In this document: one piece after another, positions 4,249-28,588 of the stretch
Numbering within the stretch: position 1 is the first letter of the stretch
Layout: each line of letters starts with the position of its first letter
Assembly (NCBI GenBank): GCA_965645245.1
Contig: OZ287069.1
Location: forward strand, 3,162,001-3,226,000
Source: Massalongia carnosa
Taxonomy: Eukaryota
Direction of reading: 5' to 3'
DNA length: 64,000 nt
Position numbers and translations under genes: made by a program
The notes under the pieces: generated by a model
What the model was told of the DNA's origin: nothing
Databases searched by the model: none
Seen by the model: only the letters and a program-made list of their open reading frames with translations

Positions 4249-4961
4249 ATGCATTTTCTCTTCCTGTTTACTGTTCTGACCGTGACACTTGTCTTGGCTA
4301 TTCCTCAAGTCAAGATTGACTTGCCTGACCCAAACGACAGCGATACCGCAGCTACCGACAACCTGCTGGCATCAGCGTGGGCAACGCCAAATTCTTCAGA
4401 AAAATCTGGGACTTCCTCCAACAGGGATATTTCCATGAACTCAGATCAAGGTACCTTGGCAGAAAATGGCAAAACAGGTCAGCCTTTCGGTCCTCCCGAT
4501 TCGGGCAATATTGAAGGTAAGCCTGTCGATATGATATGGTTCGTTGCTGAGCAAACTAGCCTATTGCAATAATCATGGCTTCGGCAACAGGAATATCGTG
4601 CCACCAGAGATTCCACCACTGTGCCATAACGGAGGAGGGCCATTTTGCTGTTTCGGAAAACTAGACGCCATAGGAATAGTATCATGGTGCGTGCCATGTA
4701 TGTATAGCCCTTGGAAAATCCGAACAAGATACGTTATTCAGGCGAGAAAACGAAGGGTTTCTTTTAGCTGCTCACTCATGTGCGTAGATGCCTACGAAAA
4801 CTTAGTATGTTGGGCTGTGCGGGCGATATGTTGTGTAGGACTTACCGTAACCACATCTTTTTACTTTGTTTAATGCGTGTTTTCATGATTAAATGATGAC
4901 AATATTGACTTGACATATTCTCCAATTCTAGTACGAGAAGCAAGGCCACGGTTGTTATTGA
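4249..4961 (+). CDS. Secreted Cys-rich protein A (164 aa) with a hydrophobin-like 8-Cys C-terminal core
   Basis: Signal peptide MHFLFLFTVLTVTLVLA, then an acidic Ser/Asp/Asn spacer. Exons 4249-4516, 4560-4697, 4788-4846, 4932-4961 total 495 nt in frame. Core spacing C-x7-CC-x12-C-x9-C-x6-CC-x11-C, ending ...KQGHGCY*. Confidence 0.75.
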
Positions 4962-6397
4962 TCATTCAGTTTCATCGTTACTCTGGTCTTCTATATTTTG
5001 GAAAGGCAAACGTACGTTACCGACCCAACTCGAATCCCTCTGGAGGAGTAACTCCATTCTCCCACGGTCTTACCAACTTTCAGTCCGTTGAGGGAACCCT
5101 CATCATTTCTTCGGACAGCTAGTGGCGCAACGGATTAGAGTCCCACTGACTCAGGATAGCCATGCATGAGAAGACTTGTAGTGTGGCTGAGAAGCAGACT
5201 TCTATGCTTCCGGGCTACGAGGCTAGGCTACTGGTATAACGCGGCAGGAGTGGCCTCGAAGTGCTCTACAAATACACTCGTTGAGCAAGGCACAGACTTT
5301 AATATACCCCAAACCATGAACGACGGCGTTAGCCTTCAAACTCGCCCTCGTCCTCCTTCTAGCATCTATCTTTCTAAAAAACCCCCCACCAGCTCTTCCC
5401 GTTTCTTCCTCTTTTCCACCTCCTTTCATTATCTACTCCTCTATCCATACTGTACCAGAACCCCCTTTTGGACGAAAATCCCAAACCAACCAACCTCTCC
5501 TATCCCCCCTAAAACCTAGAAAAACCACCGGTCCCAACCCCTGGTTCATTCAATCAAGGCTGGGCTTTACCCGCGGAAGCTTAGATAGGTATGTAGTAGT
5601 ACCTCTCGAAGCTGGAAATCAGCTCTAGAGATTTGCTTTAGGGGTTGGTTAGCTGTTACATATCGCTGTGAATAGTTAAATGTGTCTAGTTAATTTTAAT
5701 CCTACCTTTTCACAATTCTCTTGGTAGATACAATAAGTGTAGGTCCTAAATACTAGGTCCTAATAGTCCGCTCTCCAAACGTTTTTCTTCTTCGCCCCCC
5801 TCCCCCCAAACTTGACTCCCTGATTATGAGTGAGTATTTGATTCGGGCGGTAGTCTACCCGTTTCGTTATAAATACTCTAGCGCTCCTGTCTTCGACCTG
5901 TCTATAGCTGTTTTTCTTTTTTCTTTTTCCTTTCGTTGAAGCTTTGTCCATGGGGTCTATGCCATCTCTGGAATCTTTGTGTCCGGTCTTTGGGATTATC
6001 TGTTATGGGTTGTAGTGTAGGTATGATGAAGGATGAGGATTCTTTATTTGCAAAGCTCAGGTTATATCTCTCTCACTGATAAATTGACAGCCCCCCTTCC
6101 ACCGATTATTTTGTTCTACGGTTCCACTGCCATCCCGGCCTGCCGACTTAGCCAAATTCCGAGCCGTTATGAGGATTCAGGGTTTTACATACACCCAGCC
6201 TCTTAGGCTCCTTTGTGAATTTCGATACACTCCTGTCTCGAAACTTATCATGAATAAAATTCTTGCAATGTTCCTTTGCCTGGGGCAAGTTCTTCCCTAA
6301 TTTCCCCGTCCATCACCCCATGGAATATATATAGGCCGTACCAACCAAGGTGGATTGTGTCAGAAGGTCAATATTCGTAGCGGCTGTGTCCTTTCGC

Positions 6398-7794: not shown

Positions 7795-9590
7795 TCCTTT
7801 CGCAAGATGAACGGGAGAAGTCCCCCGTCTAAAATATATACGAGATCGCCTTCTCGGGTCTCTCTAGGACAACCTCTAATGCTGTGATGCTTCGTCCTGG
7901 TGATCCGTTGATTAACGTGACTTGACTGAATTGATATTAAAGATGTAAAGTTGCTTGGTGTCATTGAATTACTTTCGCTTAATCATTTTTCGTAGTCTTT
8001 CGGCATCATCCTACGGTACTTCTTAGGGTCGTAATCGGTCATAATGTCTAGGAACAGCGTCCGCCACATATAATCACGAACGTCTTCAGCAGCTTCGTCA
8101 GCTGGAGCCAATATTGTGTCTACTACCGCTATTTCACTGCAGTGCTGGAGAATTTCCAGATAAAAGCTGCGGCTGTTCTCGGCATTAGGACGCATAGGAG
8201 TATCCCCAAAGAAGAAATCCGAAGAAGTTTTAGAGATGCTGTCAAAGTGGATTCCTTGAAATGATACCAGACCACTTCCATCATCAGGTGCTAGAGTGGC
8301 CCGTTTGTCCTTACGCGCAGAAAACATGCCTTGTAGCTGACTGATATCAGCCCCCAGTTTTAGGCCCGGTGTAGAGTTGTCATAATATGACCAGTCGGGT
8401 ACCCAAGAGGGTAGCTTCAACTTCTTGTGTGAGAGAAGTAGCTTGAGTCGGTGCCTCTAGTGATCCGGATTGTGAAATGATAGAACGAGCGGTACGTTCA
8501 TACGTGGCTTCAACGGATAATGAGTAGTCTGCGTCAAGTTGTAGAGTGCGGGTGAGGCCAAGGGTCTCATAGACTTTATCATGAAGATGCGATGCTTGGA
8601 GAAAGCGGAAATGATTTAAAGATCACGAGAGCGTGAGGTTTTCTGACCTATGGACTCGTTGACACAGCTCGAATTGCCGGTATTTCTGGAAGTACAACCG
8701 ACCCAATATATCAAACGCCTGTGTGTAACTCGCAAGCTTGAAGCCGCAGCAAACCGCGTGATTCCCACCTAGTTAACCACACCCGCCAAGTCATTCCATT
8801 CACAAGTCCCGTTGGTCGTAGCAAATCAGAGCCCGGTGCGCCAAAGCAGCCTCTTGAACCACTCAGATCCAATCCCACCACGGGTTTTGAATGATGATCT
8901 CGAGAGGGCGAAGAATGACGCTTAACTCGTTGTCATCCAGTAAGCTTCCATCTGAGCTGCGAATGGTAAAAGAGAGCTCGTGATGATGGTGCGGAAGAGT
9001 AAAGAGTGGTAATAACTCCATCGTCATGTCGCTTTCATTAGACTGAGGTCCAAACCATACTAATACATTTAAAGCTCGATAATATATTTCTCACATAAGT
9101 AGAAGCTGCTCATTTCGCTCTTTGATGTTACTCTGATCAATGCTAATTTGCGTCGATCTAGGGTGTCGTTGACGAACGGAGACCTTCAAGCGCACACTTG
9201 AGGTTTGTGGTAACGTGGAAAAGATTCTTGTTAATAGAGATTGGAGTGGTGATATTCTTGTCGCCCTAGACGTATTAAAGAGATTTAAATGTAGGACAGC
9301 TATCATGAGGCTTGATTAGTTGCTCGCAGATGATCTCATCTATAGCGTTGCCCAGCAACATCTGTACCAGCGGGAGCTTTCTTGTTTCCTTGCACTCTTA
9401 ACCATTTCGTCATCCCGTTTATTTCATTCTCATAAGATATCTTTGACGTTGGAGTATATGTTAGCGATGATGTCAATTGATGACTGTATATTGTCAAACA
9501 CATTATCCTCAGTTTACTGATAAAAATTCAACTGCAAAATAAATCAAAACTTTTATTCATCGTTGAGACGCCGTCAGAAATCTGTTGTTT

Positions 9591-9972
9591 ACACCTCTTT
9601 GCAAAATGGTTGGCCGAACTTTGAACTTTTAAAAAACAGGCCGCAAAAAAATTCGACGATCAACACTCCTTTTTAGCTCCTCTGTACCTCCTTTCGCAAC
9701 CCCTTTCACAGTTTCTTTGCACTTACATCAATATTGCTGATTAGACATGTTTATGTTTCATTCGCTCGAATTGCAAGTTGATAAGTTGAATAAATCATTA
9801 TTTATCTGATGTTTTTGATTATAATCATGATTGGGGTTGCAAAGAGGTTGCGAAAGGAGGTATGTAGGAGGAGGTACATAGGAAGTAAAAAGGAGCCTTG
9901 ATCGGTGAATTTTTTTTTGCGCCTGCCTTTTTAAAAGTTCAAAGTTCGGCTAGCCGTTTTGCAAAGAGGTGT
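9591..9972. mobile_element. MITE / foldback element (~380 bp) with long TIRs, possibly Tc1/mariner-derived
   Basis: ACACCTCTTTGCAAAA..GGCCGAACTTTGAACTTTTAAAAA... at 9591 is mirrored by ...TTTTAAAAGTTCAAAGTTCGGC..TTTTGCAAAGAGGTGT ending at 9972. About 120 bp of inverted similarity around an AT-rich core. TA on the left flank, TG on the right. Confidence 0.8.
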
Positions 9973-10380
9973 GATAAAGTCGACAAGTTAATCAATGACT
10001 GATTTAGCGATGGGACTGCCTAGCAATTAACATGTTGCAAATGGAAATATGCTGCAAATGAGGATGAATACGAGAAGGTAGATAGGCATTTCTGTTGAAT
10101 GGGATTACTGTATCTGGATACCTAACTACCTACGTAGTAGGTATTCGGATTCGAGGTAATAGGAAAGGAGAAGCGGGTATCTCTCGCCAGATAGGCTATG
10201 TGGCTATATAGGTTGATAGTAAATGCGGGTTTAGAAATGGTTTAGAGAACGAGGCATGAATTATAACCAGGCGTTGGAAACTATTTACCTACCTATTACA
10301 TATGCTCTCAATCGCCGCCAAGAAAACCAAGCCGCGCACGGTTAAGCAACCAAAGCGCAACGATCCCCCAATCCCGCCTT

Positions 10381-12263
10381 TCAAGGCACCCATCCATAGT
10401 TTGGCTTCGCCACGTCTAAACCGTTCCACACGGCCATGTCCGTACCGTGCTTGCGCACATAGGCCAGTTTCTGGATATATTGGAGAACGGCAAGCGGGAT
10501 GTTGTTGCTGCTCCGCAGCCTGTCGCCCACCACGTCGAGGGACAGGAAATATGCGGCCAGGCCGGCGACCATGGGCGCCGCGAACGAGGTTCCTTGGCGG
10601 AAGCCCGAAACTGCCCCTGGCGCCGAGTTGGCGCACTCCACGATACCCGGGGCGCTGACTCGGAGCGAGGGGCCTCCCATCGAAAATGGGAGGGTGGATC
10701 CATCGACGGGGGAAACGGCGCCCACGGTGATCAGGGAAGGGAACTGTGATGCCAGCAGCGCTGGCATCACGTTGATTTCCGAGAATGGCACCTCGCCATT
10801 TTCTACGTTGCCGGCGGCGACTATCACGACTATCTGATAATCCGTCAGCAATTGCCTGATTACGTCTGCGAGCTCTTGCTCGCTTTCCAAGTTAGAGTCC
10901 TTTTTCCAGCCCATTTGGCACGTGACAACAGTGTATCCAGCTATCATCTGCCCCAGACGTTTTCGCCTTGCGAGATCGTTGACGATCTTTTGAAATCCGT
11001 TGATAAGAGAACTTTTGATCGCGTTAACCTTTACGATAACTAAATGAGCCCGCTTAGCGACTCCAAACCGGGCTCCAGCGACCTTTGAGGCAGCGCATCC
11101 CCCGTGCCCGGGAAATTCCTTGCGGTCGGTTCTGGTCCGGCTAACACGCAAGCCATATATCCAGTCCGTGATGGCCTGATGGGTTGTGAACTCTGTATGA
11201 CCTGGCTCCGCGCCACTGTCAACAACATAGACGGTAATGCCTTGACCGGCCTCTGAAAAATAGTAATATCTGGGCGGGTCAAGGTAATCTGGAGCCCCGG
11301 TATACGGAGCCGACGACATGAAAGCCAAGTCATTATAAACTTGACGTTGGACTTCAACAGCGTCATGTCTCTGCAGGTGGCGGCCTTGTAACTCTAACAC
11401 GGAACGGATTGATTGATCTTGTGTTAAGAGAGGCGCAGTCGAAATTTCATTGAACTCCACAGGCGCATCAGGCACAATAGCCCGAACACCACCATCGGGT
11501 ATCATGGCTTCAAGCCGTTTGATTTGATTTTGCGTTAAACTTGCCGCATAGAATTTCGCTCCGTCATCACGGTCCCTAGAAGCCTCCCATCCTTCGGGCA
11601 GATGCATATCATCCAGGACTTCTTCAATGGCTAGGTTCAGGGCTATCCTGGCCGGATCTACAGTAAAGATGATCTGAGCAGTAGCAACCCCACATTCGGC
11701 CTAGGAGAGAGTGAGTAATAACAATATTTGACACGCTTGCACTGTTGAAGTGGATGTTCTTAAGGGTGACGAAGGATGTTACTGAATAGGATACCCACTT
11801 GGTCGGAATTGGGGTTTCTGTCGTTGCTGCATTGTTCAGTCGCCTCATTTGTTCCAGGTGTCAAAGCTGGCATTTGAACAGGAATTGAATCAGGGGTTCC
11901 AGTTACAAAGATATCTGTGGACGGGGTCGGCTGGGCTTCAGAGTCTTGGGAAAATTCCGAGAAGTCTGCACTCGGGTCGTCTTGAGTTGTCGTGGCGGGC
12001 TTCGATTGTTGGTCTCCTTCAGACACAGCGTTTGGGTCTGGTTTGACTAGGCCTGTGCTATCCAGCAGCCAGCCACCAAGAGCCCCAAGTACACCCAGCG
12101 TAGTAGCTCCAAAAGCACCAACGCCAGTCACCACGTCTCCAGCGCTCGGTAAAGGCCATACTGACTCGCCTTGACGCACAACCAAAGATGGAAACGCGGT
12201 GGCACAATCTAGAGAAAGGAACGACAGAAGAAAAAGGAAGACGAGGATGCGTTCGCTGAGCAT
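10381..12263 (-). CDS. Secreted subtilisin-like serine protease (S8), 594 aa
   Basis: Signal peptide MLSERILVFLFLLSFLSLDCATA. One intron at 11798-11701 joins the two ORFs in frame. Catalytic triad motifs VVDSG, GHGGCAAS and GTSFAAP; oxyanion motif AAGN. Confidence 0.92.
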
Positions 12264-12504
12264 AATGCCCGACGAGCTTTATTCTGAGAAGATGACATTG
12301 TGGGGTTGTCGTTTTCATTTCAATACTGAGGACCTGCTCTGCCGCGACCACGAGTTTATATTTTCGCTTACTTATGAGCCGTTAGTGGTACGAAACACTA
12401 TCTTCTCCGCCGTCATGCAGGTGATGTTGTTTCAGCTAACCTAATGAACATCGGACTGTTGTCATGACGAGCATTATTTTGCCTTTCTTCATCCCCCCAC
12501 AGCT

Positions 12505-14344: not shown

Positions 14345-14667
14345 TATCATGACGGAGACATCAGAGCTGAATCTCCTCTAGCTAAGCCAAGAACATGAGG
14401 GATTTAGGCATACCAACCAAGCCAGACATGGCCAGTAAGATGGAAGATTCAAGAGAGTTGGGTGGTTCTCCCTCGATGTTATGGGTCCAAATAAGCCTTT
14501 TTCCTCTTTTCTTGTAGAGCCATAGAGGCACGGCTCGGGTGTAGCTCTGTGGAGTGATCTGTTTTAAGACTTGAAGATAAGACATCAATGGATTATGTAC
14601 GTGTTAAGAAGCTGACAAGCCGTGAACTATAAAGTAACATTAAATCCCGTTTCTAATCGTCATGACA
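14345..14667. mobile_element. Possible degenerate solo LTR
   Basis: 323 bp bounded by the inverted termini TATCATGACG (TGTCATGACG with one change) and CGTCATGACA. No matching TSD found. Confidence 0.3.
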
Positions 14668-16177
14668 GTCTATTTTCAGTTGATTTCATCATCAAGCTTT
14701 AAGGTTAAGTATCTCTTCGTTTCTTGAAACCAACGCTCTTCATCCATAAGTAGTTCGATTCCTCCGCAACCCTAGCAAAAGATCGACAGCCACGATGTCG
14801 AACATCGAATTCGAAACGAATGCCGATAAGGCTTCCAGACCGTTTGCGAACATAAGGCTCGGAGGTCTATGCGGTTTGTTTCCTCCCGTCACTGGGCTCT
14901 CACTGGAAATGTCGAGTAATTAACAAGCCCTTGAGTTTGGCTGGGAAAATTGCGGCTTTTGATGTTATATGTAACCTTCACTGAAATTTGATCTCTTAGG
15001 TTCTATCTATCACAGAGGCTCCTTTGCTTGAGTGCTCTGCACCTTTGTGGACCGAGTGTTAAATAAACAGTTGATGGCATAATGTTCAAATTACTACGGA
15101 GGTGACTGCTTATAGCAGTCACGGCAGCCTGCAGGGCTGAGCTAGAGGGCTCGTACGAGACTGACTCGTACGAGATTGAGAAAATACTCATATTTAAGGG
15201 CCTTAATACTCGAAGGAAGTGTACGCTTTGACAAGATCACAGATATCTCTGTTCGTGTTCTTTCAACTCCGATAGTGTGTCGCAGTATGAAAGTCCGCTT
15301 GACAACTTAAACGTACCCTGGGTCGTAGCGTTCTTCCCGCAAGGAACATGACCTCGAACTCGGATGTCATTGACTAGTTTGCAGCTTCTCGCACCGATGC
15401 ATCTGCGACACACTCTACTTCGCGTTCACATCCAGACGAGGATAAGGGAGCTCGCTTTTTTGAATCCCGTCATGACGTAGATCAAAGATATTGGGGAATC
15501 AGGTAGTTTGAACTGCTCTCTTACGTACGACTGAATACATGGATAACGGATATGGAGTAGGTATCTTAACGTCTCCTGATTTTCCGTAATGATTGGATTT
15601 GGGTTCGATAAAAATGAACATCATTTCTGGACGAACCTGTTGTGGCTTCGTTCTTGTCTGTGTCTTCCACACGTCTCTACGAAGTACTTTTTACGTCGGA
15701 GTTGGAAACGTGGGATCCGCTAATGCGCGTGCTCGTTCCCACTCCGAGATCGTTTCATGCTTTTATTTAAAGTTGGTAGAACTATGCGAAGCTTTTTAAT
15801 CACGACAGGGCTCGCTAGGTTGTGCTTGCTCACGACACTATTCCGACCACAATGTAGACGGATCCCATAAACCGATTACCTCGTTACCATGAATGTACGG
15901 AGACCAGCCGCTGGAATTGTCCCTGGCCCCCTTTATATACAATAGCATGGAAATGATATTCATGCGAAACCGTAGGTTGAGTTTAGATTCTATTACGCAA
16001 TAGAAACGCAACCGTCTTTCGGATCTTCCTTCAACAATATGACCATGAAATGTATTAAAACATATAGCTACTCATTTCCTTATCATTTTGGTCTTAACGA
16101 ACTCATGGTCTATCTCCGCATTGTCTCGAATCTGCACATTTAAACTTTCATTTTTTTTCGAAATCGATGGTTTCATC

Positions 16178-17133
16178 ATGCGCTTGCTTCTTCTTGTAAT
16201 TCTTATCGTCGTAGACGCTGCAATCGCAAAACCAGTCCCAGACAAGCCCTGCCCTGGGAATCTACCTAGAAGCCTTTCCGAGACGGCTATCAACACTGAC
16301 GGCTCGCCGACCCTCGGCCTGACCGCAAACAACATCGAAAGTCCCAATCCTGATGAACCTGATGGCAGTAATCCTCTCATCGAATCTGAAGCTCCTGGCG
16401 TGTCACTGCCACGCCCCGGGAACATCCTAAGCGAATCTGGAAGCCTACCTTTAGATGCATCCTACGCCCCGGACCCTTCATTCACGACCGCCAGCCTTGA
16501 AATAGGTGACTCCACCTCGGTGGTCTCTGCTCATCAACTTCCAAATGTCGATAGTGGGAGCTCGGATCCATCTCTGCCTTTCCAGGAAGACTTAGCCCTG
16601 GTCCCTTTCGGAACCGATAATAACAATGTCGAGCCTGAAGTGGAGGACACCCCAGTCAACCCAAATGATCAGGCATGCCCTGCTCCAGGCCTCATCGAAC
16701 CATATATAGAATACCCTACTCAAGTAAGAAATCAACGGGAATGCAAAAAACCTTCCGGTCTAGTAGTATATCCTAAACCGAAATGCGGGCCGGCGATCGT
16801 TTGCTGTAAAAAACCTATCTCTCCGATTACCAAGAATCAAGAGGAATGCACCCGCTGTATGTGTTCTTCTCGTTATGATCCTTTCGTCGCGCAAAGACTT
16901 ATGTGTATCCGTATAGATGATCGCCGGAATGACCGGTGCGCATGTTTTGTAAGCTGCTGTTGGAAATTCTGGGTAAGCCACTTCGAATCCATTACCGTTA
17001 CTCGCTTTGCAAGGGAACAATTTCCGTCGACGCTTCAACTGCTCTCCGTTAAAAAGTGCAAAGTTAACGCAAAGCCTGTGTACAGAACCGCTTCACAGGC
17101 CAAGGCATCCAGTGTGTCGCCGCCAAATATTGA
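16178..17133 (+). CDS. Secreted Cys-rich protein B (260 aa) with a hydrophobin-like 8-Cys C-terminal core
   Basis: Signal peptide MRLLLLVILIVVDAAIA, then a long acidic Pro/Ser/Asp spacer. Exons 16178-16856, 16917-16972, 17086-17133 total 783 nt. Core spacing C-x5-CC-x13-C-x9-C-x5-CC-x13-C, ending ...TGQGIQCVAAKY*. Confidence 0.75.
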
Positions 17134-18332
17134 AGCAAAGGTGGCTGTGTTGATAAGACTCTTTATTTCCCTTTTTTCTTCTTTTTTTCTTGGGGAAGTT
17201 AGGAAGCAGCGGGAAGTGGAAATTGAAGTCAAACAAAAAGCTTGCTCACAGAGCACGGTTGAGTCACAAATCGCACCAATTTCTGGCACTGCTTGCTCGT
17301 AATTCATTTGGCCACGGACACGAAGCCACAGCGCCGGGCTGGGGTTCTGGATCTGGTTACCTATCCTTTCACCAAAAATGTATTGTTACACTGCCACGCG
17401 GGAATCGGGACTGGGAATTTTTGCTCCGAGGCAGGAAAACTACTTTCACCTCATCTTTCATCTACCCTCAGAACAATCTATTTCACTCACGAGATACGAA
17501 TAACTAGCGATACTAGATGTAAACAGCATGTTTTTCCCTTTCACCTCTCTTCCGAGTCTCCAAATTGCGATTCCACCAAGATGATTGACTGGAGAGAATA
17601 CCGCCTAAAGGGGCTTAACTGTATCCGTATATAGATTAGGCATTTGATTGTACTTTTCTTTACTACGTCATGAGCTCCACGCGTTTTCTTTAACTTGGCT
17701 TTCTTCTTCTTCATCGCAGTGTTTTCAACTGTCGATGGAGCAATGCAGAGAGAAAGTCTCATTCTGTAAAACATGTTCCTGAAGGTTATGCATGAAAGAG
17801 AGCGATAACCAACAGGCAAACGATTGACAGCTGCCCATATGAATTGCCCAAGAGAGGGCGCTGGAAGCAAAGCGGGGTTGAGCAACTCTCGCAAGACAGG
17901 TATCTATCTGGATACTCTATACTGGGTTGTGAACCGAACGACCACTCCCGAAAAGAGTGAGTAGTTGATGCGTTGGGCATCATTACTTTCTGCGAACCAT
18001 TTTCTTTTTTACCAGCCCAATATTCTTCTGTTTGATTCAGTTATCAGAGCTCCTCGTCGATCGGAATGGGCAAAAGGCTTCCTTCTCGCGCCTGCAGGAG
18101 TGTGGCGTGGGGACCAGTTTATTTCGTCTAGAGCGAGGGGGGAAATCGATTGGATGTTCTGCCGTCGTCTTGCGTTCGTTGAATGATCTAATGTGCTATC
18201 TCCTCTAGGTGGAGAGAAATAAGTGATTGTTGCGTTTATAAAGCACTGCCTTCCTACATCTTCTTCTTCCAGTTGTCCTCCATTTGGGTTGGGAAATGTT
18301 CATCTTGACTTGGTGGGTTTTTGACGGGTAAA

Positions 18333-19408
18333 ATGACTACCTTCAGTAGATCATTCACTACGCTTACCGGCATGGTGGATCCTTTGCCCACGACGAGCGC
18401 AGTAGAAAGAATATCGAATGGAGACTTCTCAATTAATGCTCCAATGTGTACAGGCTGCGCAATTGCTGCAAAAGGAACTGAAGTCAAAGGGACCGGAACA
18501 GCAACTGATTTGTACGTTGAAGTTCCTGTATATAAATTCCCTTTGAAAGCTGAGTCCGTCCAATAAGTGTTTTGATTAGCGCATACGCAATAAATTTGGA
18601 ATCCTTACTGGGCGGTGTCTGTTCTATACTTACCGGCGAGAAAATCACCCTACAGACTAGGTTCTCGATCGGAAAACCTGACGCATCTACTTCTCTTAAC
18701 GATGAATCCTTTACGCAAGAAGTCGAAGCACAGTTTTTTCAGCTTCATCGGTGCGATGTCGTGTTCAGGGGGAGGCATTTCGATAGTACCGAATGCATTG
18801 TTCCTAGTGGGAGGTCCAAACTCTACAGCGAGAGCAACCACATATACCTCAGCTAATTCCACGCCTCGCTTATATACGCCTTCACCCTCCAAGTCTTTTG
18901 TAGCATCAACGACTTTATCTTTTTCGCGGGCTTCCTCAATACCATCAACCCCAACACTTTCCCCATCATTTCAGTCCAATCAAACCTTATCGTTCTCCCC
19001 ACGAATCAAGATTATCATTGGGTCTACGACCCCGAGCGGTTTAATTATATTCATGATACTCGGGATCTTTCTCTGGCGCAGATATCGAGCCAGCCGACGC
19101 ACGCCGACGATTCACAAAAATTTGTCCTCTTCTAACGACTCACCGCCCCTTTCTTCCAGCAGAAATCCGAGTTACATGGAAATCAATGCAGGCACGAATT
19201 AGAAGCGGAGCATAGGAGACAAGAAGCGGCAGCGGGAGAGATGCGGCATCAGATGTTGGGGGACGAAAATAGGCTTGAGCTTGAAGGAGATCGTAATCCT
19301 CACGAGCTCGAGGCACCTGTACTAACTACTAGAAAGTCGGCAGCTAATATTCTTACAACTTCTTGGCCTGCCAGCTTCTTGATCTTAGTATTTGGAAGTG
19401 TGTTCTAG
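18333..19408 (+). pseudogene. Frameshifted single-pass membrane protein (Ser/Thr stalk, TM helix, cytoplasmic ELEA/ELEG repeats)
   Basis: Ser/Thr-rich stretch, TM segment LIIFMILGIFLWRRYR, then in another frame FFQQKSEL...HELEA...LELEG...HELEAP. At least two frameshifts. Confidence 0.55.
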
Positions 19409-20861
19409 AAATGTGTTCCACCTTTCGAGCAGGAAGTAATCTAAGTCCAGAGAATGTTATCATACTTCCCCCTTTCGATGACATTGATTGATTCCTACAA
19501 CTCCATACCATTTTCCGTTCACTTTTCTCGTTATGTCCCCATTAACGAACTTAGTTGAATCATTCCACCTATACTTTCTTCCACCAAATTCAATGCTTAC
19601 AAGCAGGAGACAGGGATTCGCTGCTTTTACACATAGAAAAATAAGCTTACGTGTGGGGAATAGTGAATGAAAGAAAAGCAGCAAGCAATCCAGATGAGTA
19701 GATCGGTGGCCTAAAGATCGAGCTTTGGACAATACCTTGAGAAATATGGCTCATGGTTTAGAACAAAAGATGATTGAGGCTGCGGACAGAAATTATGTAA
19801 AACTGATTTTGGGTCCCTTACAATGGGAGGTGGTGCGAACAAAAAACACGGATCGAGCCTCATGACACACGATAGCAAGGCTTTCACACCAAGCATCGAA
19901 CACGAGGTAGCGCTGAACCCCACAAAGTCCTGTTTCTTCGGTTTCTACTTTCTATCTAAACACTTATTTCCCATCAAGGTCCCTGGAGCAGACTAGCATC
20001 TCCGCAACTCACATAATCGTAGCCATGGTCGCAGCCGTGGTAAAACTTAAAGCAATACACCAACAATGAATTTCCGGCGAAGCGGGATTTCCCCTTCCAG
20101 GTAACAAACCCAGGAATAGGAATCGATCGCTAAGGGAGTCAAATCCGAACGCCAAGAGACTAGGCCAATCAGCCAGCGCGAGGCTTTGAAGCGGCTTACC
20201 CATCTCGCAAGGCCAGCAAGGCAAAACTTCAGGGGAAACCTAACTATGCTCGAGGAGAAGTCATCTACGAAAAGGATAAATGCCTTAGACTTATATTCCG
20301 GTGGATTTGGGTGGGGGGGGGGGAGTTCCATGGATAAATATGCCGATTTGCAAAAACACCTGTGGTAACGAGGACGGGACATATAAATTACACTAACGCT
20401 GCATATCCCAAAGGGGGGGAGAACTGCTGGCGGAAGAAGAAGTATTGAAGGGGTTCGTCAGATGAGTTAACTAGCTAGAAAAAAATAGAAAAGGAAGGGG
20501 GGGTGAACTGGGTTCGAAGCAACGGTTGAAGGTTATTCTTTGATTTAACTCTAATAAAGAGATTATTTAACGCTCGGATTCTAAATAGAGACTCTAATAT
20601 TGAAGTAGATGTAACCAGGTATGTTGAACAATAACCGAATAGGTTAGCGAGAGGTGGGTGGGTTGGGGGAGTGAAATATTTAGAAAACCTTAATTAAATG
20701 TCGATTGTTAATTAACTAGATGGTTATTATATATCAACGCTTTCTATTGCTCGTAAATATAGCTAGAGCAGCCAATTAACTAACTAGCTGATAGGATTTA
20801 ACTTCATGTAGCCGAGTCGGAGTTTCCGAGACAAAACGCGCGATGAAAGCACCTTAGTTGT

Positions 20862-22888
20862 CTATCGCTCCCCGTACAGATTCCTATACTCGTCCACCAG
20901 CCCCGCCAGATCTCTCGCGAAGCACGGCCCGAACAGGTTCCCCCACCACCCCTTCCGCCGATGGCTGCGCAACCCCAGCTGTTCCAGCAGCATGTCCGTA
21001 TAGCTCACGATGTCGTAGTAGAACCAATTCCCCGTCTGGCCCTTGGCCAGGTACCGTCGCCGGCACCAAGCGATCGTGTGGGCCACGTCTTGCTCCCGCT
21101 GCCGCGTCTCGTCCGCGAGATCGTCAGCACGAGGGAGTTTCCCGTCAAGATAGGCGACAGCCCACAACGCTTGGATTTCAGCCAGGCGGAAATTGTTCCC
21201 GACGGTGAGTTTGCCGAGGAAGACGAGCGAGTGGTCCGCCGCGTCTGAGAGTGGGGCCATTGCCTTGTATAGTCGCCATGGCGTGTTCCGGGGCGCTGGG
21301 CTGTGGTGTTTAGGTGGGTGGCGTAAGATGGGGAACTGGGAAAGGATGGTAGCATCCCAAGTTTTTTCGCGTTTCGTCCATTGGATTTCGGCGTCTTGGA
21401 TTTGATCGGAGAGCGGGACGGGGAGGCCAAGGGAATAGGCGAGTGAGGGAGAGAAGAGAGGGTTTGTGGTGGTCCAACCCGTGCAGTAGACTATGGCGTC
21501 GAGATAGATGGTCTGTGGTGATTGTAACTTCGAGCTCGCTTTGGGAGATAAAACAAGCGCGTTTGTGGAAATATGGTCGACGGATTGGCGGTATACGTGG
21601 ACGTGTTTGGCGATGGTGGAGTAGAAGTCAGGGCGTTGATTGACGCCAGAACTATCGTTTTGCCAAAAGATGCTAAAGTAGCTTGTTGTAAGCTACCAAA
21701 AAGCCGCAGTAGGCAAGTCTTACTCACGGTGTATCTGGTTCCAAATTCGCGAAGCCTCTTTTCCGGCCTTCCTCCCTGTTGAAATCGGCCTTTCCTCTCA
21801 AATCTCTATCCATGCCTTCCCATAGCTTGCGCACCAACCACCTCCCCACTCTCGTTCGGTGCAGAAACATTGACAGTACTGACGGCTTCCCAAACGGACA
21901 GGCAAGAAACGCACCTAATAGCCTCGTCTGTACCGTCTCATTAGAATTGGCGTACGGCCCGCTTCCTTCGGGAGAAAAGAAGGCGGCCGGTCCACTGCCT
22001 TCCTCGCGCAAGATCCACGAGACCGTCTTACCGGCCTTCGCGGCGGCGTACGCCACGTCTGCGGCCGATTTAGCCCCGCCCAGAACGGCAAGATGCTGGG
22101 TTTTAGGGTCTGCCAAAAGCATGGACTGGCCAAAGTCTTTGTGGTGAACTGCTGCGCCTAAAAATTCCGCTTGGCCAGGGATTGAAGGAATACTAGGGAG
22201 AGACGTCATACCAGTGGCGTCGATGAGCTTCTCGGTGCTGAATGTTCTCGTGGCGCCTTCGCAGAACACGATCCAATTGCCCGCGGATTTCTTGACGCGT
22301 TCGATGCGCGTGTGAAATAAAATTCTCTCGCGGAGGGTCTTGCCGTTGTAGACATGGTTATCGACATACGACTCTAAGTATGCGGTGACGTACTTGGCGG
22401 GGAAGAACCCCCAGTATTGGTCTGCTTTCGGTGGTGGGCTCATGGTTCTGTCGGAGAACTCGGCCATGCCGACGGGAGCTTGAGTCCAGAAAGCATCATA
22501 CATTCTTTCTTAGTTCACCCGTCAGTATATACGAGGAATTCTCGTGATCACAATGTGCCTTGCACTTCATGGTTGTCGAACTTGCAAACTCCAAAATGAG
22601 AACAAAGCAAGAAGACTAGACCGATTGTGTTTTGCTCTTCAGAACCGAGAGAACAAACTAGAAGAAACAAGGGTGGTTACTCGACCCCCAAGTTCCCCCG
22701 ACAACATCATCCCATTCCAGCACCAGAAGTTTAGCATTGGGATGAATGTCAAGATAGGTCCGCGCTGCTTGAATGCCATAAAGCCCTGAAGCACTTTATG
22801 AGAAGACGAACTTGAAATTGAGAAGTAGACTTCAACCTGCACCAATCACAATGACATCCCAGCCATTTGAGCGAATTTCTCCATCCAT
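20862..22888 (-). CDS. Class B flavin-dependent monooxygenase (FMO-like) #1
   Basis: DVIVIGA|GLYG FAD motif split by an intron, VGGTW, ATG, FLGAAVHHKDF (FxGxxxHxxxF fingerprint), GGAKSAAD NADPH motif and CTGW. Three introns; reading frame intact. Confidence 0.9.
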
Positions 22889-23691
22889 GACCACGGCGCA
22901 GTTAGCCTGAGGCGGACGTTTTTTCGATTCAAGTCGTGTAGTAATGTATGGCCTAGCGATTCAATAAGATTTACAGCACAAAGTGTTGAGATTAGCATGA
23001 AGAGGGCATCGGGATGCTACCTCGAAAATAGTTGAAGTGGAGGTTTGATCCTCGTGTTTGTTTCTCGGCCAATGGAAGTTAACTGACGTGCTGACAGCTC
23101 AAAAAGCACGTGATCCGGCGAGACACTAGTACGTATAGAGTATAGCTACGTAGACTACTACGGATACTGTGTTAGTACTCTTACGCGTTAAACTATCCAC
23201 GTTACTCAAGCGAGCTCAATGTTATCGTCGGGGTTATAAAGAGAGTCGATTCTTGTCAATAGACATGAAGGATTCCTGACAGGGCCAATGTCGAAATCAT
23301 AAAGTGACATGACGCCTCGCAGCGAGTCAGCGAGACTCCGCCTCCAAACCCAAACACCTAGATGAAGGATCTCCCATATCTGTTGATGTTATAATGTGCT
23401 AAGACATCAGTAAATAGAGTAGATAAAGTATGGAGATATGACCTTGAACACATAGCAGCCGGTCGTCCCAGGAATCAAGAGTAAGAGTTACTTTTTGGAA
23501 GACATCAAACACTAAAGGCCATTTCAGTCCTCCGATATAACTACCACACCCCACAAAGGCATAATGATTAAAACTTTGGCGGTACTGAGTAGAGCTTGCT
23601 CTAAAAGACCATGGTTTTGCGCTAGTTATTCGTCTATAATGCTATACAATTTTCATTCTCGTATCATGAGCACTAGAGTACTGCAACGGCT

Positions 23692-25020
23692 ATGACATAT
23701 CTACCCTCTTTTTAGACCATGTCGAGGATATCGAGCTGTATCGACCGGGTGGCTTCCATCCAGTACACCTTGGAGATACCCTTGCCAGTGGAAGATATTG
23801 AATAATTCACAAGCTAGGTTTTGGCGGCTATTCCACGGTTTTGCTAGCCCAAAAGGAATTCGAAGAACGATACATTGCACTCAAAACCATGGCCGCTGAA
23901 GCTTCTCTTGATTTTATCGAATTTGAAGTTCTCCAGCATCTTGCAACGACCTCATGCGACTAGCTAGCTCGAACATATGTTGCTTCCACCCTAGATCACT
24001 TTAAATCTGAGGGCCCAAACGGAGCTCATATTTGTTTAGTTTTGCAAGTTGCTGGACCAAACATTACCCAGATGTATCACAGCCTAGGTCAAAGTCGTAG
24101 ATTACAAGGAGACTTGGCGCGGAGGTTAGCTGGACAAGCCGCTAAAGCTCTTGTATTCTTGCACTCGAACGACATAGTTCACGGGGGTATGACTGATGTC
24201 CGCATCTCTAACATTCACCACGTTAAATATGATCCACCTTAAAGACTATACAATGTCAAATATCCTTATTCAACTTGCCAACATTAATGGCTGATCAGAA
24301 GGAGAAATTTTGGACCGATTTGGCCATCCGATTAAAGACAATATATCGTCTTTCCCTGGACCGGAGCTCAATCCCTGCATACTTGATAGAGCCAGCGGTA
24401 ATGTTCAATACCGACCCTCAATGGCTGAACAAGGAAATTCTGGTCATTGACTTTGGCCAACCCTTTTTCTCCGGCCAGCCACCAGTACAAGGACTTGGCA
24501 CCCCTCTCTCTTGTAGAGCGCCGGAAGTTATATTCGATCTGCAGGCAAAATTTGGTCGGACATCTGGACTTTGGGCTGCGTCATTTGAAATCCGTTCGGA
24601 AACAACCTTATTTGCCTCTTTTTCAGAGGCTCCACCGAAGTGCTGCTCAAATGGTTCAAACTCTGGGCAAATTTCAGAGCCTTGGTGGAATAAATGGGAG
24701 CAGCGACATACTTATTTCGATGATCACGGGAAGCCAAAGCAAATATGGGCGAATAAAATTCCAATGGCTTTAGAATATCCTTTAGCAGAGCAGATAAAAG
24801 ATATCAGCATCGAGGACGGAGAAGATGGAGAAGATGGAGACGGTGAGGATGACAGCGGGGGCTAGCCTCCTGACGACAAAGGGCAGGAGCTGATGGAAAT
24901 TATGGAAACAAAACTAACAAATGATGAAGAAGATATCCTGGAGAATCTATTGGTGAAAATACTCAAGTATACACCTATTGAACGACTAAGATTGAACAAA
25001 ATAGTAACCCACCATTGATT
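23692..25020 (+). pseudogene. SRPK-like (CMGC) protein kinase pseudogene
   Basis: EDIELYRPGGFHPVHLGD, HKLGFGGYSTV, YIALK, FLHSNDIVHG, IDFGQ and RAPEV motifs. In-frame stops (GRY*IIHK, SCD*LA) and frameshifts. Confidence 0.9.
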
Positions 25021-26013
25021 TCTTCAATAAAGCCAGAGGGGCGAGGATTCTATAACAAAAGTCGCGATAAAAGCTCGACTAAACGGAGTATCTGTAAAGG
25101 TAGGCTGATAGGTCGATAACCTGCCTCCTGTGACCTAACTAACTTGGCTTTCATGTAAACAGGTAGCGTTTCGGATCTCTCCTAATGTATTCGCCAAAAA
25201 AAAAGATAACTTCCTCGAAGACATGTCTATTTGGTCAAAGCAGCTTCTTGTATCGAGTATGCAATTCGCCCACGAGTTATGTTGTGTCCCATGACTGATG
25301 TGAATACCATGAGAGTGCTTCCTTGGAAGCCCATGAAAGCCTTTGTTCAAAGATCAGAAGACCGCAATCGGTCGAAACTATTGACCTTATGCGAAATCTT
25401 GTTCAGTGGCTGGTCGCGAATTACAAATCGAGGGGACTTTACCCAATATTTTAACCTAGCATGCGAATGGTTCCTTCCTATTAACTCTATCGGGGTCTAG
25501 GATGCTAAGGAAATGTCGTCTCTCACTAAATGGTATAGCCCTTACTATTTCCCCTGAGTCAATTTGGTCGTGGAAACAGAAGTAGTCTCGTAATCCCCCT
25601 CAGGCTTGCTTCCGCTACGCATAACCCGCAATCCTGTATGTACCAAATTGTGTATAACTTTAAATGTCTCGCCACGGAAAAATTTACAGCGGGGTGATGG
25701 TAGTAAGACCTGTCAGATGAATCGCTAAACATAAGAGTTCATCAACGGTATTGCTTTATATACTCCCTTAACTGGCCCCTTGTGCCGGGAGCTGGACTCG
25801 CGAGATGGGATATTTATATACCTCTACATTATTTGAGCACAGAATCTTCCCAGAATATGTATACCCTGTACATGTCTCATGCCACACGCCACGCTAGACC
25901 TAAGAAACCCTTCTCTTAACTAATTCAAGAAATTTTCTTCAGCGAAAGCTCGTGGAGAGATCGAGTTCCCGCCCCTGTTCCCGTTCCTGTTTCTGTTGTC
26001 TTGTCATATATTA

Positions 26014-26080
26014 TCTCTCTCTCTCTCTCTCACTCCCTCTCTCTCTTTCTCTCTTACATACACACACACACACACACACA
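26014..26080. repeat. Compound (TC)n/(CA)n microsatellite
   Basis: TCTCTC... run followed by ACACAC... run. Confidence 0.9.
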
Positions 26081-27678
26081 ATAATTGAACTAAACCAAAC
26101 CAAATGAAAAGAGTACGATAATGGGAGTCGAAAACGAGTCGTGGAAGTGACGGAGAAGATCAGAACCATTCTGTACAGGGCATGTTTATAGATATACCTA
26201 TCTATCCCGAAACCACGAAAAAGGGGGAAATGCTCGTAGAATCAATCAATAACCGGCTCTCACGATAGCAAACGTCAAGATGACGTTTTTGGATATTTAT
26301 CCGTACATGCATACTTGTCTAATTTTTCATCGTTCAGAGTTTTTGGGGGGGGGGGTTAAAACCAACCATCTTCATATTCACGATACATGCACAGCTACCT
26401 CATTTTTCTGCCAACTTCATCCTTGCTTATCAATCTTTCTTTTCTTCTCCTCTTCACCCATTTCCTTCTTAACCCCTTCCCCTTTCTACAAGCCATCCCG
26501 TCAAACCCAACACCCCCACCCCTCTTCGTCCAACCATCCAATTCCCAACTCCCATCCCAAAATCTCACTAGCTATCCTACCAAAATTAGCATGCAAACAT
26601 CTCCGTCCCTCCCTCCGCCGTCAGGAAGAGAACTGGGGACAAAACAGAACCAAAAACAACAAAAAACGAAAAAGCCGAATCTACCTACCTACTTACTCAC
26701 TTTACCTATTTTGTCTAGAACCGTCGTCTCCTCGAGATATTTTTTGGTGCATAGCTGAGGGTGGGATGTTGAAGAATGTTGGTCCGACATTGGCTGAGTG
26801 GGATGGGATGAAAAAAAAGCGGTGGGAGGGGCATTTTTTTGTGGTAGGTAGGTAAATCGATATGTGGATAAATCGATAAATGGAATGATCACTTCCTTAA
26901 TGATGGAGGATGACAAGTTCGTTGGTTGTGGTAGGAGTAGGAAGCGGCATGAAGGGGAATTTCTGAAGATTTCGTATTAGCGGCTGCGTGAGCTTCTTGA
27001 TTGTGAATATTCCAAAAAAAAGGCAAAAATGCGAAGATGCCGCGCCCTAGGAGTCTCTCGGTTCAATGCCAAACCTAGTCTGTCAAATGAGTTAAGGAAC
27101 AGTATTGAAGTGTCGACGAAATAAAGCGTAGGAGATGGATTGATTGAATAATACATTAATCGAGTTTGTATGATACTGTACTTTTCTCCCTTCTCCCCCC
27201 CCTTTTTCTTTTTCAAGATCATTAGTTCTCGAACCTCCGTGTCGGTAACTAAGTGGAGGAAGAGGGTGGCGGCTTCATTTTAAGGAGTTGAGCGATAACG
27301 TCAGCGGCCCCAGATCCCTCTTTCCTTAGCTTCAGAGCTCTATGTAGCCAGGTGGATTTGAGTAACAGCTCGATTTGGCAGATTTCATTTGGTACCCTCC
27401 CCTTCCTTCCCCTAAGCCCCGAGTTTTCCGGAATGCTTATGGCGAGAAGAAGACCTGAGGACTTAAATGGCCAAGGGGTTCGTGAGCGGAGAAGAGATTG
27501 AACGACCTTAGGAAGGTTGGAAGTAACCATGTATATGAAGAAGGTATGTGTAGCGTGTTTTTACCTGTTTCAGATTGCACTCTGTTATATATCTTCAGCA
27601 ACGCAATGAATTGAAACAGTCAGAGTAGTTACTCCTCAATGCTCTCCCGCGGACCGAAACCGAATGAGCATTGGTTGA

Positions 27679-28588
27679 TTAGTTGAAAAAATCGAAAACA
27701 TGATGGCCGAATGGACTTTCTGGATGGAAGAAGTTTCGATCGCATACGAAACCCGTTCCTAATCCGGGCTATCCAGATCAACATTCAGAAATACGTTGAC
27801 TTTGGCGGCGTATCTGATGCTGGGGGAACTCTAACGTAGAGACTGAGAATCAAAACACTTACCACGGTAACCTCATGACCCTCGTTCAACACGAACTGCT
27901 TACAGCACCAGACTTTTGTTATATCCATGCACTCGGGACGGAAACAGTTGCCCAAATCTACACCTCACCATGTCAGTTGCGTGTTCTCGGAAACGCACAA
28001 TGCATGAGATGGGATGATATAATGGAGAGAACATGTACATTTCCAGCAGTTGTCAACGAAAGTGTTATACGGGCCGATTTCTCCAACGCAGCACAGCGTT
28101 TCCCACCAGATAAAATTATTCATTGTAAACTTGGGTGGTGGGCAAAGTACTTCAACTTTTAGGCATTCACAAAGTTCCCCCCGCAGTTTGATGGCCCTTC
28201 TACTGTTGCCGGAAAGAGTTTTGCAGAACTTCCCATGTGAATTGGGGCTGCTGGGTATGGCTTGCACCTTGGCAGACTCGGAAACCAAATCTGCGTTTGG
28301 AATCTCTAAGTTGCCGGACATTAAGTCTGTTGACTGGCTGGGAATGGTGATATCGTTGATTTCTGCTGCGGTGGGATTGTTTCCATCTATCTCATCTTTT
28401 TGTGAGCTTGATTTCATCGTTGTATCAAGTTCACCCAGGTTTTCAACTGTTGGCGCCGAGAAAGCAGCAACATCACCAATATCTGCAAGAAAAGACCCAG
28501 TGCTCCAATCCGGAGCCAGCGCAAGAACGAAACACAAGCCAAGTGTTTTGGGGGAAGCTACGAGGAGAAAAATCATCAAGATACGCAT
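27679..28588 (-). CDS. Secreted Cys-rich protein C (244 aa) with a hydrophobin-like 8-Cys core plus extra Cys
   Basis: Hydrophobic N-terminus MRILMIFLLVASPKTLGLCFVLALA, then an acidic spacer. Exons 28588-28039, 27957-27863, 27768-27679 total 735 nt. Core spacing C-x16-CC-x13-C-x11-C-x7-CC-x21-C, containing ...LGTGFVCDRNFF. Confidence 0.7.

What the first reader, a model, noticed from the sequence alone, without database searches (positions are those of the whole stretch)
4249..28588. Hidden three-member family of secreted proteins with an acidic stalk and hydrophobin-like 8-Cys head, sharing two introns
Seen: the genes at 4249-4961(+), 16178-17133(+) and 27679-28588(-) look unrelated in the ORF track. 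Once spliced, each gives a signal peptide, a long acidic low-complexity spacer and a C-terminal C-CC-C-C-CC-C core. All three have a phase-1 intron splitting a Tyr codon (T|AT) three codons after the 4th core Cys, a phase-0 intron after the second CC, and a last exon with G-x-x-C (KQGHGC, GQGIQC, GTGFVC). Established: C-CC-C-C-CC-C is the hydrophobin Cys pattern, but these spacings (12-13 between C3 and C4, 9-11 between C4 and C5) fit neither class I nor class II cleanly, and the core of B is strongly charged. Inference: an expanded, fast-diverging surface or effector family (possibly at a host or symbiont interface) that automated annotation would likely mis-splice.
Basis: partly seen in the sequence, partly recalled or inferred. 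Interest (0 to 1): 0.8.

Follow-up and report, generated by a model that had tools for sequence, protein, structure and literature searches.

The report
Expanded fungal hydrophobin-derived secreted protein family
Three look-unlike fungal genes are members of a family of dozens of exported proteins descended from hydrophobins (the fungal water-proofing proteins) that have mostly lost their water-repelling face and may now serve as varied binding or signalling proteins, possibly in a lichen partnership.

Summary
They are not a three-member family: pattern searches found 37 candidate genes genome-wide (rough estimate 50-60), about 10% identical outside cysteines. Descent from hydrophobins is supported by intron positions. 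Among 88 resolved class II hydrophobin genes from metagenomes, 74 of 75 first introns lie in phase 1 of the third codon after C4, and 67 of 68 second introns in phase 0 four codons after C7. These are the family's positions. They are not class II or class I members: spacings differ, no profile matches, and the aliphatic loops are largely lost. Half carry a Cys-bracketed basic loop enriched in Kex2-type sites. One neighbouring gene points to a lichen-forming ascomycete. Best reading: a repurposed, sequence-diverged hydrophobin-fold family acting as variable surface or partner-binding proteins. Fold, expression and function were not tested: no structure prediction was obtained and no RNA run was listed. 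It is a new variant of a known kind, with parallels in rust fungi, Botrytis and Trichoderma.

The parts
4249..4961 (+). Gene A, 164 aa: signal peptide, about 70-aa acidic S/T/N stalk, one extra Cys, 8-Cys head (core GRAVY 0.48, the most hydrophobin-like of the three)
   Evidence: family profile
4517..4559 (+).
4698..4787 (+). Gene A shared intron 1 (phase 1, third codon after C4, 90 nt)
   Evidence: homologous position in class II genes
4847..4931 (+). Gene A shared intron 2 (phase 0, four codons after C7, 85 nt; rival donor at 4835)
16178..17133 (+). Gene B, 260 aa: signal peptide, about 140-aa P/S/T/D/E stalk (23 D/E, 3 K/R), two-Cys loop, basic hydrophilic 8-Cys head (GRAVY -0.47)
   Evidence: unspliced 374-aa form is what the protein collection holds
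16676..16744 (+). Gene B Cys-bracketed loop between stalk and head (R-x-x-R only; no KR, RR or LxxR)
16857..16916 (+). Gene B shared intron 1 (phase 1, 60 nt, in frame and stop-free)
16973..17085 (+). Gene B shared intron 2 (phase 0, four codons after C7, 113 nt)
27679..28588 (-). Gene C, 244 aa: long bipartite signal region, about 90-aa acidic stalk, Cys-bracketed basic loop, 8-Cys head with extra Cys (GRAVY 0.08)
   Evidence: paralog L029 shares the N-terminal Cys module and last-exon motif
28169..28225 (-). Gene C Cys-bracketed basic loop with RR and K-L-R (candidate Kex2 site)
27958..28038 (-). Gene C shared intron 1 (phase 1, 81 nt, holds an in-frame stop, so it must be spliced)
27769..27862 (-). 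Gene C shared intron 2 (phase 0, 13 codons after C7, 94 nt; nearer rival acceptors exist)

Best explanation
A, B and C are three members of a family of about 40-60 genes that arose by repeated duplication and rapid divergence of an ascomycete hydrophobin gene, most simply of class II type. Each is secreted (inferred from the N-terminal hydrophobic stretch). Its head probably keeps the hydrophobin disulfide cage (C1-C6, C2-C5, C3-C4, C7-C8; pairing recalled, not tested). The C4-C5 helix segment is shortened, and the aliphatic loops that make a hydrophobin a surfactant are mostly replaced by aromatic and charged residues. The heads therefore most likely work as variable binding modules at the hyphal surface or in the extracellular matrix, recognising or modulating partner cells, matrix polymers or microbes, and not as a water-repellent film. 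The disordered acidic stalk acts as a spacer, or as a pro-region: in about half the family it ends in a two-Cys loop with a K-L-R-x-R-type site that Kex2 could cut, leaving the stalk held only by a disulfide. Shown: gene structure, family size, intron homology, loss of hydrophobicity, motif enrichment. Inferred: fold, secretion, processing, binding function, lichen context.
For: Intron homology: class II genes have intron 1 at codon 3, phase 1 after C4 in 74 of 75 cases and intron 2 at codon 4, phase 0 after C7 in 67 of 68 (one such sequence hits PF06766 at 93.8 bits). In the family, members found through intron 1 have a phase-0 second intron in 21 of 22 (10 at exactly four codons by automatic call). 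Loci found through intron 2 alone and having a first half carry intron 1 at codon 3, phase 1 in 13 of 14; the 14th lacks it. Weak sequence leads point the same way: the best PDB match of the first-half profile is HFBII (E 0.024), and the Atlas first hit for member L023 is an Eas-type hydrophobin cluster (0.76, lead only). L023 beats 199 of 200 shuffles on a class II profile. Repurposing: core GRAVY median -0.17, 22 of 35 below zero, against class II median 0.42; aliphatic share of the C3-C4 plus C7-C8 loops 0.08-0.41 in 22 members against a minimum of 0.48 in 67 class II cores; aromatic share 11.6% against 3.3%. Basic loop in 18 of 37; LxxR in 7 of 18 loops against 2.3 shuffled, p 0.003. Precedents: the hydrophobin-like expansion in Puccinia graminis (PMC9816061) and extended N-termini in class II genes (PMC2253510).
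Against: A, B and C score no better on a class II profile than Cys-fixed shuffles (129, 86 and 60 of 200 reach them), and profile-profile probability is 0.4%. No Pfam match for exon pieces or for the member lacking intron 1. Class I intron positions were not measured, so class II ancestry in particular is not proven. Gene A is as hydrophobic overall as a class II core (0.48), has no basic loop, and may still be a surfactant; 6 of 35 cores have GRAVY of 0.3 or more. KR or RR alone is not enriched in the loops (8 of 18 against 6.3, p 0.25), the K-L-R pattern was chosen after looking, and paralogs are not independent. There is no expression, structure or function data.
Confidence: 0.6

Rival explanations
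1. The family is still a set of working hydrophobins of an intermediate (Eas-like or pseudo-class I) type. The heads assemble at air-water or wall interfaces, for instance lining gas spaces of a thallus, and the acidic stalks make the coated surface wettable or tie it to the wall. Divergence tunes the surface rather than changing the function.
For: Full 8-Cys pattern and hydrophobin introns are kept. C4-C5 median 9 and C5-C6 median 7 resemble OmSSP1-type spacing (PMC5938622). The Atlas lead is the Eas family. A and five other cores are hydrophobic. Some described hydrophobins are fairly hydrophilic yet surface-active (PMC8596622). No canonical hydrophobin was found in the genome (insensitive, split genes).
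Against: 22 of 35 cores are net hydrophilic, and none of 22 reaches the lowest class II aliphatic loop content. About 10% non-Cys identity across dozens of copies is unlike the purifying selection reported for class II genes (PMC2253510).
Confidence: 0.2
2. The heads are antimicrobial or killer-toxin-like peptides built on the hydrophobin scaffold. The acidic stalk is a charge-neutralising pro-region that keeps them inactive until Kex2 cleavage, and they shape the bacterial and fungal community around the fungus.
For: B joins a strongly acidic stalk (23 D/E) to a basic head (9 K/R, 4 D/E). Kex2-type sites are enriched in the loops. Aromatic-rich heads. An antifungal hydrophobin is in print (Sa-HFB1, seen in the search listing and a table passage).
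Against: The heads of A and C are neutral or acidic. A has no candidate site and B only R-x-x-R. Several members have no stalk, or a C-terminal tail instead.
Confidence: 0.12
3. The C-CC-C-C-CC-C pattern is convergent. The heads have another disulfide-rich fold and the intron match is coincidence.
For: No profile similarity to class II beyond the cysteines for A, B and C. No database homolog. Many unrelated proteins share the 6-Cys pattern (10.1101/2022.08.19.504535).
Against: Two introns match in interval, phase and modal codon. With roughly 27 and 30 possible positions in the two intervals, a double match by chance is about 1 in 800 (my estimate). The independent weak leads are both hydrophobins.
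Confidence: 0.06

Closest known systems
Class II hydrophobins (PF06766; HFBI, HFBII), including those with extended N-termini such as HFB6 and QID3
   Same: 8-Cys order; both intron positions and phases (two positionally conserved introns also stated in PMC2253510); short C3-C4 loop; small residue three before C8 (G in 23 of 34 here; A or G in 50 of 67 there); P/D-rich N-terminal extensions of 64-133 aa are known.
   Different: Spacings 12-13 / about 9 / 6-7 / about 12 and variable, against fixed 11 / 16 / 8 / 10; aromatic residue in place of the conserved Pro at C4+3; no profile match; aliphatic loops lost; dozens of copies at about 10% identity; Cys-bracketed basic loop.
Hydrophobin-like proteins of Botrytis cinerea (e.g. 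BC1G_04521, BC1G_03277; PMC3032640)
   Same: Secreted, 111-120 aa before C1, intermediate spacings (7-10-10-9 for BC1G_04521), hydrophilic core.
   Different: Six genes in all there; no introns compared in the passages read; homology to this family not tested.
Hydrophobin-like sequence-unrelated, structurally similar effector family of Puccinia graminis (cluster 25; PMC9816061)
   Same: Lineage-specific expansion of a hydrophobin-derived scaffold beyond sequence recognition; proposed repurposing.
   Different: Basidiomycete pathogen, 128 members, Y/F/WxC motif, grouped by predicted structure; here an ascomycete, all 8 Cys mostly kept, link shown by introns, with stalks.
Eas-type / short-loop class I hydrophobins (PF22354; OmSSP1 of Oidiodendron maius, PMC5938622)
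   Same: Short C3-C4 loop, C4-C5 about 8, low-complexity region before C1; OmSSP1 is symbiosis-induced; Atlas lead for L023.
   Different: OmSSP1 is single-copy, hydrophobic (GRAVY 0.53) and has one intron; PF22354 found nothing in this genome (insensitive).
Kex2-processed pro-domain (K2PP) effectors (PMC8528282)
   Same: Disordered N-terminal region ending in KR, RR or LxxR before a Cys-rich domain (C and many paralogs).
   Different: Here the site lies between two extra cysteines; absent in A, weak in B; cleavage not tested.

Membership tests
Hydrophobin superfamily | C-CC-C-C-CC-C order of eight cysteines | tested here: met
   A, B, C after splicing, with 1-4 extra Cys; a few paralogs lost one doublet Cys
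Hydrophobin superfamily | N-terminal secretion signal | tested here: inconclusive
   Hydropathy only: strong N-terminal stretch in A and B, bipartite in C; 26 of 37 members pass a crude test; no dedicated predictor available
Hydrophobin superfamily | Four-stranded barrel with C1-C6, C2-C5, C3-C4, C7-C8 disulfides | not tested
Hydrophobin superfamily | Amphipathic core with exposed aliphatic patch | tested here: not met
   B -0.47, C 0.08, A 0.48 (borderline); loop aliphatic share 0.19, 0.29, 0.32 against at least 0.48 in 67 class II cores
Hydrophobin superfamily | Self-assembly at interfaces | not testable with these tools
   Needs purified protein
Class II hydrophobins (PF06766) | Two introns at conserved positions (C4+3 phase 1; C7+4 phase 0) | tested here: met
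   C's second intron sits 13 codons after C7, same phase
Class II hydrophobins (PF06766) | Fixed spacing C3-x11-C4-x16-C5-x8-C6C7-x10-C8 | tested here: not met
   A 12/9/6/11; B 13/9-11/5-3/13; C 13/11/7/21; family medians 13/9/7/12
Class II hydrophobins (PF06766) | Profile match | tested here: not met
   Own class II profile on spliced cores: A -2.5, B -4.5, C -0.3 bits, within shuffles; genome search gave one chance hit below cut-off
Class I hydrophobins (PF01185) | C3-C4 loop of 17-39 residues | tested here: not met
   12-13 in A, B, C; consensus from PMC3032640 Table 1; a few paralogs reach 16-21
Class I hydrophobins (PF01185, PF22354) | Pfam match | tested here: inconclusive
   No match on unspliced pieces or in the six-frame genome search; spliced proteins were not scanned against Pfam
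Class I hydrophobins | Intron positions | not tested
   No class I gene set fetched; Tricholoma class I genes have one splice site inside C5 (PMC5147985), which differs
HFS hyphosphere proteins | Eight single cysteines, C-CxxxC-C-C-C-C-C | tested here: not met
   Two CC doublets here; pattern from PMC8596622
K2PP effectors | KR, RR or LxxR after a disordered N-terminal region | tested here: inconclusive
   Present in C, absent in A, only R-x-x-R in B; 13 of 18 family loops against 7.5 shuffled, p 0.003; cleavage untested

The most novel reading that the evidence does not exclude
A lichen-forming fungus has turned one hydrophobin gene into a repertoire of about 50 non-surfactant recognition proteins, many made as precursors whose acidic stalk is cut by Kex2 inside a disulfide-closed loop and stays tethered until reduced. 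The repertoire acts on the photobiont or the thallus microbiome, a mutualist counterpart of the rust hydrophobin-like effector expansion, and it can be traced in any genome by its two introns when protein similarity is gone.
Probability: 0.22. Interest if true: 0.78.

Novelty: new variant of a known kind. Interest (0 to 1): 0.52.

Why it matters
If the host is a lichen former, this gives a concrete, countable candidate family for the little-known secreted proteins at the fungus-partner interface. A third of the Xanthoria secretome was left without annotation (205 of 608; 10.1101/2024.08.16.608140), and stalked proteins like these tend to fail structure filters. It also answers, for one family, a question left open by a kingdom-wide survey (10.1101/2022.08.19.504535), namely whether hydrophobin-like proteins descend from hydrophobins: intron position shows descent where protein profiles fail, and the test is cheap to repeat on other genomes. 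Without a function or expression data it remains a divergent branch of a known superfamily.

Tried and rejected
Homolog searches found nothing usable: B core, self only; L051 exon, no candidate; first-half profile against 1.84 billion proteins, 2 hits, both unrelated repeat proteins; Atlas on unspliced B, no usable hit; single-exon searches of the own genome gave only self, plus one weak hit each for B and C (the one for C, L029, proved a real paralog). These blanks show low sensitivity, not absence. No RNA holder was listed; the four runs laid gave no splice joints. No structure prediction was obtained. A fourth member in the window at 18447-18503 (minus) was considered and rejected: no C1, no signal, no second-half exon, and it lies antisense just beside a plus-strand S/T-rich membrane-protein frame. 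An excess of intron-1 lengths divisible by three (9 of the first 12) shrank to about 17 of 36, p 0.06; rejected. A recent tandem origin of A, B and C was not supported: 9-16% non-Cys identity, no grouping in 200 bootstrap trees, but the tree is saturated and largely unresolved; their clustering within 24.4 kb is still unlikely by chance (p 0.005-0.02). A search for members without intron 1 was swamped by simple repeats. The second-intron pattern gave fewer hits than its reversed control (36 against 80), so only its gene-structure read-out was used. A plasmid search with a neighbouring gene was uninformative. Earlier scan notes gave nothing relevant.
Full report
Observation. Reading the three regions and splicing by coordinates gives open frames from ATG to stop: A 164 aa (exons 4249-4516, 4560-4697, 4788-4846, 4932-4961), B 260 aa (16178-16856, 16917-16972, 17086-17133) and C 244 aa (minus; 28588-28039, 27957-27863, 27768-27679). 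All 7 introns are GT..AG. Each protein has a hydrophobic N-terminus (hydropathy only), an acidic stalk (D/E against K/R: 8/3, 23/3, 15/3 in the stretches measured) and a C-CC-C-C-CC-C head ending G-x-x-C. The shared phase-1 intron splits a Tyr codon three codons after C4; the shared phase-0 intron follows C7 by 4, 4 and 13 codons. A needs a third intron of 43 nt. Rival splice sites exist for A's last donor and C's last acceptor; the choices made match paralogs but are not confirmed by RNA. No RNA holder was listed. Four runs laid over 15800-28900 covered it like DNA, with no differing letters listed and no splice joints, so B and C are not assembly artefacts; three of the four runs are from one study.

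Family. A pattern for CC-x12/13-C-x-x plus donor gave 25 hits in the 52-Mb genome against 6 for the reversed control; a wider one gave 65 against 20, many in repeats. Gene modelling of the fetched loci gave 22 members. A reciprocal pattern built on the second intron (36 hits, control 80) and one allowing other residues at the split codon (14 hits, control 12) added 15, for 37 candidates. Of these, 35 cores were modelled together, L221 separately and L245 stayed unresolved. Overlap of the two searches suggests about 48-60 genes (rough, assumes independence). Non-Cys identity among the first 22 has median 10%, maximum 30%; A-B 13%, A-C 9%, B-C 16%. Yet each of A, B and C matches a profile of the other 21 (25.4, 14.2, 26.2 bits), which 0 of 200 Cys-fixed shuffles reach. 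Architectures vary: long N-terminal stalk (21 of the 26 with a signal in the open frame), almost none (L023, L051), or a head-first form with a tail of over 100 aa (L018, L024, L042). Degenerate copies with stops or frame breaks exist (L019, L210, L227), as expected of birth-and-death evolution. The tree is saturated and does not group A, B and C, though three members in 24.4 kb is unlikely at random (p 0.005-0.02).

Origin. Protein-level links to known families are weak. Pfam found nothing for the unspliced frames of the three genes among 28 window frames, one chance hit among 36 pieces, and nothing for the member lacking intron 1. Genome searches with PF06766, PF01185 and PF22354 found no real gene, but these are insensitive on split genes. 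The first-half profile's best match among 177,635 PDB sequences is HFBII (E 0.024; HFBI E 1.2), and the Atlas first hit for L023 is an Eas-type hydrophobin cluster (0.76, lead only). I therefore tested gene structure. A recalled class II motif retrieved 111 metagenome loci, 94 distinct and 88 resolved; one scores 93.8 bits on PF06766. Searching all positions and phases, 74 of 75 introns between C4 and C5 lie in phase 1 of the third codon after C4 (13 genes have none there), and 67 of 68 between C7 and C8 lie in phase 0 after the fourth codon (20 have none). The family has the same sites by two tests not built into the searches. Among the 22 found via intron 1, the best donor in any phase after C7 is phase 0 in 21, at four codons in 10. 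Among 31 rows examined from the intron-2 search, 14 had a first half; 13 carry intron 1 at codon 3, phase 1, and one lacks it (5 of the 13 were already known; 9 rows had no standard first half, two of which later proved members that lost a Cys; 8 were read as out of frame, one of which later proved a member). PMC2253510 (passages) states that Trichoderma class II genes have two positionally conserved introns, with exon 2 coding the helix and third strand. Class I positions were not measured; PMC5147985 (passages) reports a different site in a basidiomycete. So hydrophobin descent is well supported and class II ancestry is likely, not proven.

Not a member of class II or class I. Family spacings have medians 7/13/9/7/12 and vary (31 cores parsed), against nearly fixed 8/11/16/8/10 in 67 class II cores; the class I loop of 17-39 (PMC3032640 Table 1, passages) is not met by A, B or C. 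On a class II profile A, B and C score within their shuffles; only L023 stands out (1 of 200), and profile-profile probability is 0.4%. Core GRAVY has median -0.17, 22 of 35 below zero and 6 at or above 0.3, against 0.42 for class II. The aliphatic share of the two loops that carry the class II patch (role recalled) is 0.08-0.41 in 22 members against at least 0.48; the charged share is 0.21 against 0.11 and the aromatic share 11.6% against 3.3%. A (0.48) is the exception among the three.

In 18 of 37 members the stalk ends in a loop between two extra cysteines, with median K/R 18% against 3.5% in the stalk. The published Kex2 motif LxxR (PMC8528282, passages) occurs in 7 of 18 loops against 2.3 in shuffles (p 0.003); KR, RR or LxxR in 13 against 7.5 (p 0.003); KR or RR alone is not enriched (p 0.25); K/R-aliphatic-R, chosen after looking, in 9 against 1.1. 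C has it, B has only R-x-x-R, A keeps one Cys and no site. I infer that many members are cut in the Golgi with the stalk left disulfide-tethered; this is untested.

Context. Neighbours include a stalked subtilase, two flavin monooxygenases, P450s, a LINE reverse transcriptase and a sulfatase. The monooxygenase beside C has its best relatives in lichen-forming ascomycetes (Xylographa 71-68%, then Pycnora, Stereocaulon, Trapelia), so a lichen former is likely, on one gene. The contig ends in rDNA 66 kb beyond the window. The only database copy of B is the unspliced 374-aa frame.

Mechanism. Most likely (0.6): secreted, disulfide-caged hydrophobin-fold heads that have traded the surfactant patch for variable aromatic and charged surfaces and act as binding or modulating proteins at the cell surface, on a spacer or pro-stalk. 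Rivals: still surfactants of intermediate type (0.2), pro-region-masked antimicrobials (0.12), convergent fold (0.06). Gene structure, family size, intron homology, hydropathy and motif counts are shown; secretion, fold, processing and function are inferred.

Comparison and novelty. Known parallels, all seen as passages: class II genes with P/D-rich extensions (PMC2253510); hydrophilic hydrophobin-like proteins with 111-120 aa before C1 in Botrytis (PMC3032640); a 128-member hydrophobin-like family in Puccinia graminis (PMC9816061); the symbiosis-induced short-loop OmSSP1 (PMC5938622); 996 unplaced hydrophobin-like proteins whose relation to hydrophobins was not investigated (10.1101/2022.08.19.504535); HFS proteins with another pattern (PMC8596622); a review noting intermediate classes (PMC13514795). 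Ten library searches showed no description of such an expansion in a lichen fungus. The Xanthoria secretome study (10.1101/2024.08.16.608140, passages) names no such cluster in the passages read, but its supplementary cluster table was not seen and could hold relatives; subscription papers are not searched. Verdict: real, larger than reported, a new variant of a known kind; interest 0.52.

Noticed in passing
window 10381-12278 (-): Secreted S8 subtilase whose first exon has the same kind of signal peptide plus acidic P/S/T/D stalk ending in a Cys; acidic stalks may be a shared module of this genome's secreted proteins.
   Followed up: no
window 20862-22509 (-) and 28956-30573 (-): Two paralogous flavin monooxygenase genes flank gene C; the second matches lichen-fungus proteins best.
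   Followed up: partly
window 46869-49685 (-): 938-aa open frame of a LINE-type reverse transcriptase.
   Followed up: no
window 24233-24865 (+): Fragment resembling a protein kinase by eye, with no Pfam match, probably degenerate.
   Followed up: no
window 7983-8456 (-): Frame with an LPSWVPDW motif typical of HET-domain proteins (label recalled; no Pfam match on this piece).
   Followed up: no
window 18594-19202 (+): S/T-rich frame with one transmembrane stretch and a basic tail, like a wall sensor or mucin; the rejected fourth-member match lies antisense just beside it.
   Followed up: partly
window 43032-43658 (+): Secreted protein with a SnoaL/NTF2-like look (label recalled; not scanned).
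   Followed up: no
L258:1-3000 (start of contig C3): Telomere array mixes CCCTAA units with a longer variant unit containing GGCGTA.
   Followed up: no
L257:1-4000 (end of contig C3): Contig ends in rDNA (SSU, 5.8S, LSU), 66 kb beyond the window.
   Followed up: partly
L018, L024, L042 (own genome C7, C14, C4): Family members with the head first and a 109-118 aa tail after C8, the reverse of the stalk-first layout.
   Followed up: partly
L209, L236, L254 (own genome C1, C13, C20): A supported-looking subfamily that lost one Cys of the first doublet yet keeps both introns.
   Followed up: partly
L253 and L067 (own genome C15, C22): Members that each lack one of the two shared introns.
   Followed up: partly
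L063 (C14) and L255 (C17): Two tandem pairs of members 2-3 kb apart, each pair a supported clade.
   Followed up: partly
own genome, e.g. L034, L057, L060: A dispersed repeat of at least 70 bp appears on many contigs in the pattern output, probably a transposon family.
   Followed up: no
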